A stretch of 64,000 nt of DNA, taken from IMG/VR virus record IMGVR_UViG_3300035492_000037, one strand, 5' to 3'. The position numbers and the translations under genes are program-made. Below are positions 1 through 43,154 of this stretch, piece by piece (position 1 is the first letter of the stretch; every line of letters begins with the position of its first letter). The notes beneath the pieces were generated by a model. That model was not told where the DNA came from. It saw nothing but the letters and a program-made list of their open reading frames with translations, and did no database searches. Origin of the DNA: a virus.

Positions 1-773
1 ATGACACCGGCATGGCTGGCAGCATCGGCGCCGTGGTCGAGATCAAGCTGGGCGACGACAAGGAAAGCGGCAAGCGCTACCAGATCGTCAGCCGAAACGC
101 ACCGAACAAGCGGCCTGACCTGTCCACCGAGGGTGGGCGCGCCAAGATCGCCGAAACAATCGACGCCCTAGGAGATGTGTTCGCCGCTAAGGTGGCGCGC
201 AACCTAGGCGTTGATCCTGAAGACGTGCCGGCCATGGGCGACCATGGCGGCATCAAGATGGGCGCCGCCGCCGTCGAGGCGGGTCTGGCCCACCGATTGG
301 GCTCGCTTGAGTCCGTGATCGCTGACCTGGCCCGCCCGGCAGCAAACCAACAGAGGAAACCCTCCATGCAGGTTAAAACCACTGCGGAGCTGCGTGCTGC
401 CATCGAGGCCGGCGCCGACCCGCTTACCATCGAGATCGCCGAGCCGGTCATGTCCGAACCTGTCGACGTCGACGCCATCAAGGCCGAAGCGTCTCAGGCC
501 GCAGTGACCGCCGAGCGTGAGCGCATCAAGGGCATCAACGCCCTGGCTGCAGTCGGCTTCGAAGAGGAAGTTTCGGCTGCCATCGATACCGGCCTGAGCG
601 TCGAGGCCACTGCGCTGAGCCTGTACAAGGCATCGCAGGACCGTGGCGTAACGCTGGGCGCGATCAAGAGCGACGCCAAGTCCGCAGCCGCTGCCAGTCC
701 CAAGGACGGCACCGACAAACCCACCATCTCCGCAAAATCCATCTGGGCACAACGCCAAGGCCGAGGAGCGTAA
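1..773 (+). CDS. S49-family head maturation protease/scaffold, 5'-truncated by the window edge
   Basis: Frame stays open to the window start; GSIG and A..AGLAHRLGSLE S49 motifs; sits before decoration and capsid genes as lambda C/Nu3 does. Confidence 0.8.
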   Translation, partial: DTGMAGSIGAVVEIKLGDDKESGKRYQIVSRNAPNKRPDLSTEGGRAKIAETIDALGDVFAAKVARNLGVDPEDVPAMGDHGGIKMGAAAVEAGLAHRLGSLESVIADLARPAANQQRKPSMQVKTTAELRAAIEAGADPLTIEIAEPVMSEPVDVDAIKAEASQAAVTAERERIKGINALAAVGFEEEVSAAIDTGLSVEATALSLYKASQDRGVTLGAIKSDAKSAAAASPKDGTDKPTISAKSIWAQRQGRGA

Positions 774-39481: not shown

Positions 39482-39951
39482 TCATCGGAATCGACCCTGG
39501 CTGCACTGGCGCCATCGTAGTGATGACCGAGAGCCGCAACTACGTGGCTCACCTCAACATGCCGACCATCAAGGTAGGCACGAAGAGTCGCGTGAACGGC
39601 GCCGCCGTCGCTGCCTTCCTGCGCGAGACGGTCGGGGAGTTCACCGCTCATGCCTATCTGGAGCAGGTCGGCGCCATGCCTGGCCAGGGCGTTTCCTCGA
39701 TGTTCACCTTTGGCCATGCCGCTGGCGTGGTCGAGGGCATCCTTCAAGGAGCGTGCATCCCGTACACATTGGTCACCCCGCAATCATGGAAGAAAAGAGC
39801 GGGCCTCATTGGGGCCGACAAGGATGCTGCACGCTCCCGCGCAATCCAGCTCTACCCGGACCTCCGCATTCTCGACCTGAAAGGGAAGGGGCAAGCGGTG
39901 GCCGACGCCATTTTGATCGCCCGGTTTGGGGCTAAAGGGGAGGCAGCCTGA
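39478..39951 (+). CDS. RuvC-like Holliday junction resolvase
   Basis: IIGIDPG, AYLEQV, FTFG, VTPQSWKK, ADAILIA. Confidence 0.88.
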   Translation: MIIGIDPGCTGAIVVMTESRNYVAHLNMPTIKVGTKSRVNGAAVAAFLRETVGEFTAHAYLEQVGAMPGQGVSSMFTFGHAAGVVEGILQGACIPYTLVTPQSWKKRAGLIGADKDAARSRAIQLYPDLRILDLKGKGQAVADAILIARFGAKGEAA

Positions 39952-41087
39952 TGGCCGCACGCAAAGCGACAGACGACGAAATCAAGGCTGCGCTGACTGG
40001 CCGCACTGTGGCAGAGGCTGCGCAGATCCTCGGGCTGCACGAGCGCAATGTCTACACCCACAAGGCGCGCCTGGCTCGCCAAGGGTGGAGCCCGGAGCAC
40101 GGGCTGAACACGGAGTACCCTGACGGCTTCAAGATGGGCAAGGTTACCATCCAGCGGAACGGGCAGGGCGAGATCGTCAACACGTGGGAGCGGATGTGCG
40201 AGGACTCCGAGCGGCAGATGCAGATGATGCAGAGTGCCATCGAGACGCTGTGCAATCGCGTCCCTGCGGTAGCAAGGAGGAAGGCGGTTGGCAGCTTCGA
40301 CGAAAAGCTGTGCGTTGGATATCCAATCGGAGATCCGCATTTCGGCGAATACATCTGGGGCGCCGAAGCTGGCGGCGATTGGGATCTGACCATAGCGCGC
40401 CAAACCCACATCGACGCCATGGCTGCCCTGGTAGAGGGCGACCCGAGGGCTGAGCGCGGGCTGATCGTCAACCTTGGCGATGTCCTGCACTACGACTCAC
40501 TGATGCCGAAGACGCCGCGCTCAGGCCACATCCTGAACTCGGATGGCCGTTTCTCCAAGATGGTTGACGTGCTGATCGACACGATGGTGACAATGATCGA
40601 GATGGGGCTTGATCGGCACAAGACACTGCACGTCATCAATGTCCAAGGCAACCACGACGAGACGGGCTCTCAGTGGCTGTCCCGTGTGCTGGCTGCTCGG
40701 TTTATCAACGAGCCACGCATCACTTTCGACTTAACGCCAAGCGTCTTCAACTACTACCGCTTCGGCAAAGTTCTGGTTGGCAGTCATCACGGACATTCAG
40801 CCAAGCCGGCAGCGCTCCCAGGAGTGATGGCTGCAGATAGACCTATTGACTGGGGCGAGACCATCCACCGCTACTGGTGGACCGGTCACATTCACCACGA
40901 ATCCAAGAAGGAGTTCCCAGGCGTATCGGTTGAGTCGTTCAACACGGTAGCGCCGGCTGATCCTTATGCCTACAACGCCGGTTACCGCTCGCGCCAGACA
41001 ATGAAGTCAATCGTCCTGCACTGCGAGAACGGAGAGGTATCGAGGCAAACGGTTCATCCGGACATGGTGAAAGGGGTGGCAGCATGA
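39951..41087 (+). CDS. HTH plus calcineurin-like metallophosphoesterase
   Basis: N-terminal TVAEAAQILGLHERNV HTH; GDPH, LGDVLH, GNHD, HHGH, GHIH metal-binding motifs. Confidence 0.8.
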   Translation: MAARKATDDEIKAALTGRTVAEAAQILGLHERNVYTHKARLARQGWSPEHGLNTEYPDGFKMGKVTIQRNGQGEIVNTWERMCEDSERQMQMMQSAIETLCNRVPAVARRKAVGSFDEKLCVGYPIGDPHFGEYIWGAEAGGDWDLTIARQTHIDAMAALVEGDPRAERGLIVNLGDVLHYDSLMPKTPRSGHILNSDGRFSKMVDVLIDTMVTMIEMGLDRHKTLHVINVQGNHDETGSQWLSRVLAARFINEPRITFDLTPSVFNYYRFGKVLVGSHHGHSAKPAALPGVMAADRPIDWGETIHRYWWTGHIHHESKKEFPGVSVESFNTVAPADPYAYNAGYRSRQTMKSIVLHCENGEVSRQTVHPDMVKGVAA

Positions 41088-41629
41088 CCTATCGCAACGT
41101 GGTTTCCGCAGTAGTCCGCGCCCTGGCGTCGGAGGTGATTAACTCGGCTGGTGGGTGTGATTTTGAGCCAAAGGTGCAGGCTGCCCGAGTGCCCGGCGCC
41201 ATCTGCGGCAAGGAAGAGGCGTTCCTGACGGACTGCTGGGTGTTCTCACGCCTGCACACGATGTTGGGCCCTGAGCACTGGCGCGCATTGGTGGCGCAGT
41301 ATTCGACGCACGCCGACCGCAAGCGCATTGCCATCGCTGAGTTGGTCGGCACGATCCAATCCCCGGCGCCGGTTCGGTTCATCAACTGCTGTGTGGTGAC
41401 GTGGGCCTATCCGAAGCTTCCGGGCGCAGAGGGCAAGCGGTCAACCAATGTGCTGCCGGCCGGGTGGTACAACATGGACAACTGGAGCGATGACCCGGTG
41501 CCGGTGAAGACCCAAGAGCGCTGGCGTCGTGACATCCGCAAGGGCTTGAAGCAGGCCGTTGACCAGGCGCTGATCGAGGCGCACGAGATCCTGGCTGCTG
41601 AGGGATTGGTGGCAGGCGAGGCGGCGTGA
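41084..41629 (+). CDS. Late antiterminator Q-like protein
   Basis: Last gene of the nin region before the late promoter; C-terminal helical DNA-binding region. Confidence 0.65.
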   Translation: MTYRNVVSAVVRALASEVINSAGGCDFEPKVQAARVPGAICGKEEAFLTDCWVFSRLHTMLGPEHWRALVAQYSTHADRKRIAIAELVGTIQSPAPVRFINCCVVTWAYPKLPGAEGKRSTNVLPAGWYNMDNWSDDPVPVKTQERWRRDIRKGLKQAVDQALIEAHEILAAEGLVAGEAA

Positions 41630-41649
41630 AATAAATTTGCGAAAGGGCG

Positions 41650-41678
41650 TTGACTAGGAACAGTGTTCCTCCTATAGT
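41650..41678 (+). promoter_or_regulatory. acr operon sigma70 promoter with an Aca1-type operator in the spacer
   Basis: TTGACT (41650-41655), 17 bp, TATAGT (41673-41678); palindrome AGGAAC-AGT-GTTCCT at 41656-41670. Confidence 0.85.
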
Positions 41679-41724
41679 GAAGCCATGCCAGTCAGCCGGC
41701 GCGGCGAAACCAAGGAGAGACACC

Positions 41725-41946
41725 ATGTACGCAGGATACCAAGCAGCAAAAGTCGAGTTTGAAGGCCGCACTGTAGTCGTTGATATGGTGACGATTGGTG
41801 GGCTAGTAGGCGACTGGAAGGCGCGCAGCGAGGAAGACAAGTATTGGATTGGAGACCTGATCGGCTTTAATCGCGCCCTCAGCATGGCAATCGACAGCGA
41901 AGACGGCATTGCTGAATACAAGTCCGTTCGCGTAACTATGCAATAA
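41725..41946 (+). CDS. Candidate anti-CRISPR protein A (73 aa)
   Basis: AGGAG RBS; first gene of the aca1 operon; net acidic. Confidence 0.7.
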   Translation: MYAGYQAAKVEFEGRTVVVDMVTIGGLVGDWKARSEEDKYWIGDLIGFNRALSMAIDSEDGIAEYKSVRVTMQ

Positions 41947-41973
41947 ACAGCATACGATAAAAGGAATTTACAA

Positions 41974-42267
41974 ATGAGCCTCACTCATATCTACAGCGGG
42001 AACGCCTACGAGCATGACAATGTTGACAGTCGCGCCGACCTATCGAAAGCCGCGTCGCGAACGGCTGTTGCTGAGCGAGTGCTGCGCGCAAAGCGGCCGT
42101 TCAGCATGGATGAGCGGCGCTGGAATGAACTGAGCGAGTGGGCGAATCAGCAGATCAATGGCTGCGACTCGCTGCCGCCTATGGCTGTCACTGCCATTGT
42201 TGCGTGCCGGTGGCCTGGCGAGCCCGTGCAAAACAATGGCGTTAGGTCTGAAAGCAACGCCAAATGA
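41974..42267 (+). CDS. Candidate anti-CRISPR protein B (97 aa)
   Basis: AAGGA RBS; ATGA overlap with aca1. Confidence 0.65.
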   Translation: MSLTHIYSGNAYEHDNVDSRADLSKAASRTAVAERVLRAKRPFSMDERRWNELSEWANQQINGCDSLPPMAVTAIVACRWPGEPVQNNGVRSESNAK

Positions 42268-42485
42268 AGCCTGACGCCAGCGCCCGTAACCCCGCCCCGG
42301 ATTATCTCCGGGGTCTCATCGAACAGGCAGGCATATCGCAGCGCGAGGCAGCAGAGCTAATCGGCATCGAGCCTCGCCTGCTGCGGTACTACCTGACGGA
42401 CCCGGCGAGCGGGAAACAGTTTCGAGTGGCGCCGTACCCGGTCCAGTTTGCCCTGGAATGTCTCGCGCCATGCAAAGAGGGTTGA
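42264..42485 (+). CDS. aca1: Anti-CRISPR-associated HTH repressor Aca1
   Basis: PDAS..NP.P.YLRGL…AGISQR.AAELIG…R..RYYL…R.APY.VQFALECLA matches the Aca1 sequence as I recall it almost throughout. Confidence 0.92.
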   Translation: MKPDASARNPAPDYLRGLIEQAGISQREAAELIGIEPRLLRYYLTDPASGKQFRVAPYPVQFALECLAPCKEG

Positions 42486-42511
42486 CAGGAGTGCTCTAAT
42501 GAGCCTAAAGT
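42482..42511 (+). promoter_or_regulatory. Putative late promoter pR'
   Basis: TTGACA at 42482-42487 and TAAAGT at 42506-42511 (18 bp spacer), followed by a terminator. Confidence 0.5.
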
Positions 42512-42559
42512 AAGCCATCCTGTCGATCTTGCGCGTTAAGGAATGACATACAGCACATG

Positions 42560-42599
42560 AAGCCCCGGCACAGAGCAATCTGGTCGGGGCTTTTTTATT
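42560..42599 (+). terminator. tR'-like terminator
   Basis: AGCCCCG…CGGGGCT stem followed by TTTTTT. Confidence 0.7.
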
Positions 42600-42839
42600 C
42601 CCATCGAATTCGATGTGTTTGCGCGAACGGCTGATTAGGGCTCGACCACCCGGCGCCCAATTCAATACATCCGCCATGCCTCTGATCATTTTCCTGGCGT
42701 CACGCAAATGATCATGCACAAATCGCGCGGATTTTCATTCGCCTCACGGCAACCCTCTTCCGGCCCCATGCCTGCCTCCTTGCCCCGAGCGGATCGCACG
42801 CGCATGTGAGGCCGGACCAAACACCAACGAGACTCCACT

Positions 42840-43154
42840 ATGACCGACAGCCATGAGGGCAGGACAGTGCATGAGCGAGTCGGCGCCCTGGAGCAAGAGG
42901 CAGCCGTCACTCGGCATCGCCTAGACAGATTCGACCGGGACCACGCGCAGTCACCCAACCGCCTGACCAAGCTTGAGCAGCAGTTCGAGCACATGACCCG
43001 CCAGCTCACCGCGATCGGAGAGAGCCAGGACGAGGTAGCCGGGAAGGTGGACACACTGAGCAACAAGCTCACCTATGGGATTGGCGCCGGCGTGGTGCTG
43101 GTTGCCGTGTTCGACAAGCTGTGGCCGTTCGTTGCCAAGGGGTTCGGCGCATGA
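42840..43154 (+). CDS. Coiled-coil membrane protein of the lysis cassette (holin-associated)
   Basis: Heptad region plus a C-terminal TM; precedes the holin. Confidence 0.55.
   Translation: MTDSHEGRTVHERVGALEQEAAVTRHRLDRFDRDHAQSPNRLTKLEQQFEHMTRQLTAIGESQDEVAGKVDTLSNKLTYGIGAGVVLVAVFDKLWPFVAKGFGA

What the first reader, a model, noticed from the sequence alone, without database searches (positions are those of the whole stretch)
41725..41946. Candidate Acr A: 73-aa acidic, beta-rich protein
Seen: first gene of the operon; 12 Asp/Glu against 8 Lys/Arg; alternating hydrophobic strands. Established: many Acrs are small acidic DNA mimics. Inference: a Cascade- or Cas3-binding inhibitor.
Basis: partly seen in the sequence, partly recalled or inferred. 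Interest (0 to 1): 0.8.

Follow-up and report, generated by a model that had tools for sequence, protein, structure and literature searches.

The report
Untested anti-CRISPR candidate in Aca1 operon
A real 73-residue phage gene sits first in a self-contained, swappable operon controlled by the known anti-CRISPR regulator Aca1, so it is a well-supported but untested candidate for a new family of bacterial-immunity inhibitors; nothing shows that it mimics DNA.

Summary
41725-41946 (+) is a 73-aa gene with a good ribosome-binding site, 12 Asp/Glu against 8 Lys/Arg and pI 4.6. It is under purifying selection (dN/dS 0.10-0.34 against five homologues). It is the first gene of a bounded operon: sigma-70 promoter, 15-bp palindrome in the spacer, gene A, a 97-aa gene B, aca1, intrinsic terminator.

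The last gene is a clear Aca1 homologue (PDB 7c0g, E 4e-21). The palindrome AGGAAC-AGT-GTTCCT differs by one base per half-site from the JBD30 Aca1 operator AGGCAC-AAT-GTGCC.

The A family is tiny, with about seven close members, all from metagenomes. In every locus read it comes first after a palindrome-bearing promoter and upstream of Aca1 or another HTH gene. One locus also carries a homologue of the AcrVA4 N-terminal domain. In sibling phages from other metagenomes exactly this operon (41652-42582) is replaced between conserved flanks.

A confident model (pLDDT 90) gives three strands, two helices, two strands. It matches no solved or predicted structure and no known Acr. The most likely reading is a new candidate Acr family (about 0.55). 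The target subtype is unknown, and DNA mimicry is unsupported. The scan has found other Aca1 operons with unnamed cargo on other DNA, but not this protein.

The parts
41650..41678 (+). sigma-70-type promoter of the operon: TTGACT (41650-41655), 17-nt spacer, TATAGT (41673-41678)
   Evidence: 10 of 12 consensus matches; sequence
41656..41670 (.). Aca1-type operator: perfect palindrome AGGAAC-AGT-GTTCCT inside the promoter spacer
   Evidence: Sequence. It is the only exact copy in the window. The same half-sites stand before the A homologue and Aca1 of L013. The JBD30 Aca1 site IR2 is AGGCAC-AAT-GTGCC (PMC8633003). Binding was not tested.
41712..41717 (+). ribosome-binding site AAGGAG, 7 nt before the ATG of gene A
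41725..41946 (+). gene A: 73-aa mildly acidic alpha/beta protein, the candidate anti-CRISPR (the finding)
41974..42267 (+). gene B: 97-aa protein of no known family, second cargo gene; homologues follow A in L001 and L006
42264..42485 (+). aca1: 73-aa HTH repressor, homologue of Aca1 of Pseudomonas phage JBD30
   Evidence: PDB 7c0g E 4e-21, 7fa3 E 4.8e-21; R44, R47, Y48, R59 equivalents kept in the printed alignment; phrog_3865 E 2.8e-28; 128 phage records, 127 of them Pseudomonas
42559..42601 (+). intrinsic terminator of the operon: 15-pair hairpin followed by UUUUUUAUU
   Evidence: -25.7 kcal/mol, z -5.7; none of 200 shuffles folds as well; the consensus scan missed it
41652..42582 (.). limits of the exchangeable cassette: the flanks are kept in sibling phages of other metagenomes, this stretch is replaced
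   Evidence: tables 2, 5, 7, 8: an X7 contig joins 41652 to 42582 with 1482 other letters between; X3 contigs diverge after 41652 into an L007-type operator

Best explanation
Gene A encodes a small soluble protein that a temperate Pseudomonas-type (probably Stutzerimonas or Pseudomonas) lambdoid phage makes right after its DNA enters a cell, to switch off the host's CRISPR-Cas system. That system is most likely type I (I-F, I-E or I-C), and the most likely mode is stoichiometric binding to the surveillance complex or to Cas3. Shown here: A is a real, conserved gene. It is the first cistron of a promoter-to-terminator unit whose last cistron is a true Aca1 homologue. The promoter spacer holds an Aca1-type palindrome. 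The A family keeps this position beside Aca1 or other HTH genes in different genomic places. The unit is exchanged as a cassette between near-identical phages. Inferred: the strong promoter fires early, Aca1 builds up and represses it through the palindrome (as shown for JBD30), and A is an inhibitor of CRISPR-Cas. The binding surface is probably the conserved W-K-A-R-S/N strand and the two conserved acidic turns flanking the helices (E37-D38 and D57-S58-E59-D60), not a general DNA-like charge array. The target subtype and subunit are unknown.
For: Aca1 homology: PDB 7c0g E 4e-21, with the DNA-contact residues kept. All but one of 128 phage records holding a homologue are Pseudomonas phages, and several are annotated with AcrF1, F2 or F3 next to it.

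Operator: AGGAAC-AGT-GTTCCT fills 15 of the 17 spacer bases. It is unique in the window and has the 6-3-6 geometry of JBD30 IR2, with one base changed per half-site. AGGAAC-AAT-GTTCCT stands before the A homologue and Aca1 in L013.

Guilt by association in independent contexts:
- Window: A-B-Aca1, between a nin-region gene and the holin.
- L013: A-D-Aca1, between the integrase and the lysis genes.
- L003: A-D-Aca1, beside a Q antiterminator gene.
- L001: A-B'-C-HTH. C is homologous to the N-terminal domain of AcrVA4 (E 7.8e-11), and the promoter holds a different palindrome.
- L006: A-B''-wHTH.

Cassette behaviour: the flanks are 90-99% identical in four other runs while 41652-42582 is replaced. 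In the related phages psageK9 and PS-1 the same slot holds other genes.

Real protein: dN/dS 0.10-0.34; AF2 pLDDT 89.8 and pTM 0.77 with all five models above 82.
Against: No functional data of any kind exist. No Cas genes, CRISPR arrays or self-targeting spacers could be examined, because the window comes from a tar-pit metagenome contig and no genome is held.

Genes next to aca1 are not always Acrs. In Leon et al. [quoted passage not shown]

The more distant A homologues in low-GC lambdoid phages sit after ninG without a recognisable Aca1. The family is therefore not tied to Aca1 throughout.
Confidence: 0.55

Rival explanations
1. A inhibits a different bacterial defence (restriction-modification, an abortive-infection or signalling system) and merely shares the Aca1-controlled early-expression cassette.
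For: The control logic (strong early promoter plus autorepressor) suits any anti-defence gene. The literature describes clustering of anti-defence genes beside aca genes (PMC7648647, title and abstract). Many aca-linked genes fail CRISPR assays (PMC7913775). Distant A homologues occur in nin regions without Aca1.
Against: Aca1 itself is so far known as the regulator of type I Acr genes in Pseudomonas elements. One A locus carries a homologue of an AcrVA4 domain. A has no similarity to any known anti-restriction or other anti-defence family in Pfam, PHROGs or NCBIfam.
Confidence: 0.2
2. A is an accessory (moron) protein with a role unrelated to host immunity, for example in lysogeny, superinfection exclusion or host physiology. 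Alternatively it is a helper that works only together with the second gene (B or D).
For: No function is shown. A is always followed by a second small gene, B in three loci and D in three. The slot after the 181-aa gene holds unrelated genes in other phages.
Against: The partner changes (B or D) while A stays, which argues for an independent module. Aca-type autorepressed cassettes are so far known for counter-defence genes. A has no signal peptide, membrane segment or DNA-binding motif.
Confidence: 0.2
3. One reading: A is an acidic DNA mimic that occupies the DNA-binding face of Cascade/Csy or Cas3.
For: Net negative charge in all six close homologues (10-13 D/E against 6-9 K/R, pI 4.2-5.2). 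Two acidic patches are conserved (positions 37-38 and 57-60). Several Pseudomonas Acrs are acidic, among them the DNA mimic AcrIF2 (PMC7913775 abstract).
Against: The charge is modest (net -4 in 73 residues). The best conserved motif holds two basic residues (K32, R34). The model is a compact alpha/beta domain with no resemblance to solved DNA-mimic proteins among the search results.
Confidence: 0.1
4. The ORF is a chance open frame or a mis-called gene.
For: It is short, lies in 60% G+C DNA with many spurious ORFs on both strands, and has no family hit.
Against: RBS and conserved start; purifying selection in 15 of 15 pairs; homologues down to 32-44% identity; a confident fold prediction that improved with alignment depth.
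Confidence: 0.01

Closest known systems
acrIF1-aca1 operon of Pseudomonas phage JBD30, and the other aca1 operons of JBD/D3112/MP29-type phages
   Same: The regulator is the same (Aca1, E 4e-21, DNA-contact residues kept). The operator has the same geometry (6-bp half-sites, 3-bp spacer, AGGNAC). The layout is the same: strong promoter, one to three small cargo genes, aca1 last. It lies in a temperate Pseudomonas-type phage.
   Different: There is a single operator, lying in the spacer, instead of IR1 and IR2 (IR2 being the site responsible for repression). The half-site is AGGAAC instead of AGGCAC. The host phage is lambdoid (slot between the nin region and the lysis genes), not Mu-like. The cargo proteins A and B match none of the Acrs annotated in those phages: tblastn of A against 50,697 phage records found nothing.
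Small alpha/beta type I anti-CRISPRs with solved structures (such as AcrIF1, about 78 aa; recalled from memory, not tested by name)
   Same: Size class, mixed strand and helix composition, mild acidity, first position in an aca1 operon.
   Different: No sequence match to any PDB chain at E up to 10. No fold match: best Z 4.0, to protease inhibitors; the only Acr listed is AcrVA3 at Z 2.6. Whether the strand order resembles any Acr could not be settled.
AcrVA4 N-terminal domain (Moraxella bovoculi; PDB 6p7m, 6kl9)
   Same: A homologue of this domain (133 aa, E 7.8e-11) is a co-cargo gene of the A-family operon in L001. This links the A family to the known anti-CRISPR gene pool.
   Different: It is a neighbour, not a relative of A. 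The domain is dispensable for Cas12a inhibition and its role is unknown (PMC6711708). It is absent from the window.

Membership tests
Aca1-regulated acr operon | Last gene encodes an Aca1-family HTH repressor | tested here: met
   PDB 7c0g/7fa3 Aca1, E 4e-21 over residues 2-68; phrog_3865 E 2.8e-28; homologues in 127 Pseudomonas phage records
Aca1-regulated acr operon | Promoter carries an inverted repeat of the Aca1 operator type | tested here: met
   AGGAAC-AGT-GTTCCT at 41656-41670 in the spacer of TTGACT-17-TATAGT, against JBD30 IR2 AGGCAC-AAT-GTGCC. The same half-sites occur in L013. Physical binding was not tested.
Aca1-regulated acr operon | Small cargo genes of variable identity between promoter and aca, on a mobile element | tested here: met
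   A-B here, A-D in L003 and L013. The cassette is replaced between conserved flanks. Prophage context.
Anti-CRISPR protein (functional class) | Inhibits a CRISPR-Cas system in vivo or in vitro | not testable with these tools
   Needs plaque or transformation assays, or biochemistry.
Anti-CRISPR protein (functional class) | Host carries a CRISPR-Cas system, ideally with self-targeting spacers tolerated in the lysogen | not testable with these tools
   No genome is held for this metagenome contig.
Anti-CRISPR protein (functional class) | Homology to an experimentally validated Acr family | tested here: inconclusive
   No hit in Pfam, PHROGs, NCBIfam, PDB sequences or phage records. No fold match. 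Acr families without a solved structure or a profile could not be compared.
DNA-mimic anti-CRISPRs (AcrIF2 type) | Strongly acidic surface arranged like a DNA backbone | tested here: inconclusive
   Net charge only -4, pI 4.58, with conserved K32 and R34.

The most novel reading that the evidence does not exclude
A founds a new anti-defence protein family with a fold not represented in any structure library. It acts by a mode or on a target not yet described for Aca1-linked genes, for example a non-type-I CRISPR system, a non-CRISPR defence, or joint action with the variable second gene.
Probability: 0.25. Interest if true: 0.6.

Novelty: new member of a known kind. Interest (0 to 1): 0.45.

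Why it matters
If A inhibits CRISPR-Cas it would be a new Acr family with an unmatched fold. It comes from uncultivated Pseudomonas/Stutzerimonas-type phages of hydrocarbon and wastewater habitats. It would add a possible off-switch for type I CRISPR tools and another case of cargo swapping in Aca1 cassettes. The kind of locus and the discovery logic (guilt by association with aca1) are well established, so the gain is incremental until a target is known.

Tried and rejected
Database searches for A:
- Pfam, PHROGs, NCBIfam, PDB sequences, tblastn against 50,697 phage records and the ESM Atlas features search gave no match.

Exhaustive HMMER search:
- The high-ranking long proteins P0008, P0012 and P0014 are made of F5/8-C, Calx-beta and fn3 repeats. 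I rejected them as summed weak repeat hits. P0016 (3749 aa, four stretches, E 2.1e-4) was not scanned and is set aside as the same kind of hit.

Fold searches with two models:
- Nothing convincing appeared. Inh/APRin protease inhibitors scored Z 4.0, CdiI-type immunity proteins Z 3.1-3.8 and AcrVA3 Z 2.6 for the better model. An AbrB/MazE-like AFDB entry had TM 0.45 at rmsd 8.8.
- All are below the level where the tools' notes allow a fold call.

Collection scans:
- The A profile found no relative in 185,579 species genomes.
- Aca1 as a single query found none either (single queries find only close relatives).
- The metagenome scan added only a duplicate of L013 and a fragment.

Host genome:
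- Not held, so there was no Cas typing and no spacer search.

Literature:
- The sequence motifs of A and B are not in the full text of the paper library.
- They are not in the held supplements of Leon 2021 or Gussow 2020. The 2025 Acr census has no supplement held.

Expression:
- The RNA-library contigs laid on the region cover only the flanks, and one ends at the start codon of A. This gives no evidence for or against transcription of A.

Complex prediction:
- Not run. No host Cas protein is available, and stand-ins from P. aeruginosa would give a very low prior per target.
- The partner gene changes between loci (B or D), so an A-B test was not justified by neighbourhood alone.

Full report
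**1. What is at the coordinates**

41725-41946 (+) is an ATG-to-TAA frame of 73 codons. AAGGAG lies 7 nt upstream.

The window is 60% G+C and full of spurious frames on both strands. I therefore tested coding by selection. Against five homologues from other samples, dN/dS is 0.10-0.34 in all 15 pairs, with dS about 0.7-1.6. The gene is real and its protein is constrained.

**2. The operon**

- Promoter: 75 nt upstream lies the best sigma-70 match of the region, TTGACT-17-TATAGT at 41650-41678.
- Operator: 15 of the 17 spacer bases are the perfect palindrome AGGAAC-AGT-GTTCCT at 41656-41670. It is the only exact copy in 64 kb.
- Genes: A is followed by a 97-aa gene B (41974-42267) with its own RBS. 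A 73-aa gene follows, whose ATG overlaps the stop of B (42264-42485).
- Terminator: 74 nt after that gene comes a 15-pair hairpin and a U-run at 42559-42601 (-25.7 kcal/mol, z -5.7). The consensus scan had missed it.

So the unit runs from promoter to terminator, and A is its first cistron.

**3. The regulator**

The third protein matches the solved Aca1 of Pseudomonas phage JBD30 at E 4e-21 over residues 2-68. The equivalents of R44, R47, Y48 and R59 are kept. Mutating these residues abolishes or weakens operator binding (PMC8633003).

JBD30 Aca1 binds IR2, ATT-AGGCAC-AAT-GTGCCT-AAT. The palindrome here has the same 6-3-6 geometry and differs by one base per half-site.

tblastn finds Aca1 homologues in 128 phage records. 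Of these, 127 are Pseudomonas phages, and several have annotated AcrF1, F2 or F3 genes beside them.

This is therefore an acr-aca1-type operon by the sequence-level criteria. Binding and repression are inferred by homology.

**4. The A family**

A search of 5.8 billion clustered proteins gave four relatives of 65-71% identity, all from metagenomes. An exhaustive HMMER profile search of 1.84 billion representatives added a few small proteins of 32-57% identity (P0010, P0011, P0013, P0015, P0017). It also returned four long repetitive proteins. Three of them were scanned and are repeat artefacts; I set the fourth aside as the same kind of hit.

IMG/VR added one more locus, L013, at 58% identity. 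185,579 species genomes gave none.

Invariant positions are W31, A33, G47, L52 and A55. The conserved motifs are G-D-W-K-A-R-S/N and A-L-S-R-A-I/L-D/E-S, with acidic pairs at positions 37-38 and 57-60.

**5. Contexts of the relatives**

| Locus | Gene order | Place and notes |
|---|---|---|
| L013 | A-D(112 aa)-Aca1 | Between an integrase and the lysis genes; promoter TTGCCA..TATAAT around AGGAAC-AAT-GTTCCT |
| L003 | A-D-Aca1 | Beside a Q antiterminator gene |
| L007 | A-D... | Same slot as in the window (after the 181-aa gene) but with a different palindrome, GCGTTAGTT-AACTAACGC; the contig ends before the regulator |
| L001 | A-B'-C-HTH | Between an HNH gene and the lysis genes, with yet another palindrome (AAAGCTC-AA-GAGCTTT) |
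| L006 | A-B''-wHTH | B'' carries a C-terminal extension that looks like a ribbon-helix-helix |

In L001, C (133 aa) is homologous to residues 4-130 of AcrVA4 (E 7.8e-11). That domain is dispensable for Cas12a inhibition and has no known role (PMC6711708). The regulator in L001 is a different 73-aa HTH.

So A always comes first after a palindrome-bearing strong promoter. It is always followed by a small variable gene and a regulator, and the palindrome changes with the regulator.

The more distant low-GC homologues lie after ninG in lambdoid phages, on short contigs without a recognisable Aca1.

**6. Cassette behaviour**

The window's region was laid against contigs of four other runs: subsurface and wastewater DNA, and two RNA libraries. 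The flanks 41075-41652 and 42582-43000 are present at 90-99% identity. The stretch between them is not present.

- A 12.6-kb wastewater contig joins 41652 to 42582 with 1482 other letters between.
- Subsurface contigs leave the window at 41652 and continue with the L007-type palindrome and a TATAAT.
- Others share the promoter up to 41669 and then diverge.

The break points fall at the -35 box and inside the terminator hairpin.

In the related phages psageK9 and PS-1, the homologue of the 181-aa gene is followed by other genes. The operon is thus an exchangeable accessory module, as acr loci typically are.

**7. Structure**

With 5 sequences AF2 gave pLDDT 79. With 11 it gave pLDDT 89.8 and pTM 0.77, with all five models above 82.

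The topology is the same in both:
- strands 7-12, 15-24 and 27-33
- helices 36-43 and 48-57
- strands 62-65 and 68-72

No library gave a credible match:
- Foldseek against PDB: best E 0.36.
- VIA-align against 48,161 chains: best Z 4.0 (Inh/APRin protease inhibitors, 61 aligned, 2.9 A). The only Acr listed is AcrVA3 at Z 2.6.
- AFDB clusters: best E 0.19.
- BFVD and the ESM Atlas: nothing above TM 0.45.

 By the tools' own notes this shows neither that the fold is new nor that it is unrelated to an Acr. It does mean that no known structure explains the protein.

**8. Host and source**

The window comes from a tar-pit metagenome, from a JGI contig of 85,674 bp. No genome is held.

Aca1 and the neighbouring 181-aa gene point to Pseudomonas-type phages. 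A member of the D family occurs in Stutzerimonas stutzeri. The host's cas genes, arrays and self-targeting could not be examined.

**9. Interpretation**

The context evidence is about as strong as guilt by association gets, so A is most probably a counter-defence protein. An anti-CRISPR is the best single reading (0.55), because Aca1 is so far the regulator of type I Acr genes.

The base rate is a caution. In Leon et al. [quoted passage not shown] Anti-defence genes of other kinds also cluster beside aca genes.

Nothing supports DNA mimicry in particular. The net charge is -4, and the best conserved motif is partly basic. I favour a specific protein-protein interface formed by the W-K-A-R strand and the two acidic turns. 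That is inference.

**10. Novelty and score**

This is a new, very rare candidate family inside a well-known kind of locus. Standard acr-aca mining would flag the operon. This scan has already reported several Aca1 operons with unnamed cargo on other DNA, though none with this protein.

It is interesting as a concrete, cheap-to-test candidate with an unmatched fold. It is not surprising to a specialist. Interest 0.45.

Noticed in passing
L001:6731-7132: A 133-aa gene in the A-family operon of another metagenome is homologous to the N-terminal domain of AcrVA4 (E 7.8e-11). That domain is dispensable for Cas12a inhibition and has no known role. Here it occurs as a free-standing protein in a Pseudomonas-type acr-like operon, which suggests it is an independent module.
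   Followed up: partly
L006:396-833: The B homologue here is 145 aa. It is the B domain plus a C-terminal extension that reads like a ribbon-helix-helix (...RRNITLDDDRAEFAARLG...). It is followed by a 102-aa winged-helix gene instead of Aca1. This may be a cargo-regulator fusion like those known for some Acrs.
   Followed up: no
window 41652-42582, L007:190-235: Sibling phages in subsurface, wastewater and biofilm samples keep the flanks at 90-99% identity but carry other cassettes in this slot. One has the palindrome GCGTTAGTT-AACTAACGC in its promoter, implying a different repressor. One is a 1482-bp insert that could not be read here.
   Followed up: partly
window 42482-42511: A second promoter-like site, TTGACA-18-TAAAGT, overlaps the aca1 stop codon, upstream of the operon terminator. 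Its role is unclear; it may be chance.
   Followed up: no
L016:950-2242: A homologue of the D protein (the usual partner of A in Aca1 loci) lies without A or Aca1 in a row of small genes next to an Endonuclease_1 gene, an EAL gene and a UvrD-type helicase. A near-identical protein is annotated as hypothetical in Stutzerimonas stutzeri.
   Followed up: no
L010:58-755, L012:113-903: Distant A homologues (32-40% identity) in low-GC lambdoid phages sit just after ninG. They are followed by a very acidic 61-64-aa protein, or by a gene with a possible ribbon-helix-helix N-terminus fused to a weak DUF551 match. These may be equivalent cassettes with other regulators.
   Followed up: no
window 39951-41087: The 378-aa gene two genes upstream matches phage 'DNA repair exonuclease' phrog_704 over its full length (E 6.5e-108). 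The 181-aa gene just before the operon (phrog_3412) has no known function. It is the last nin-region gene in Pseudomonas phages psageK9, MR13 and PS-1.
   Followed up: partly
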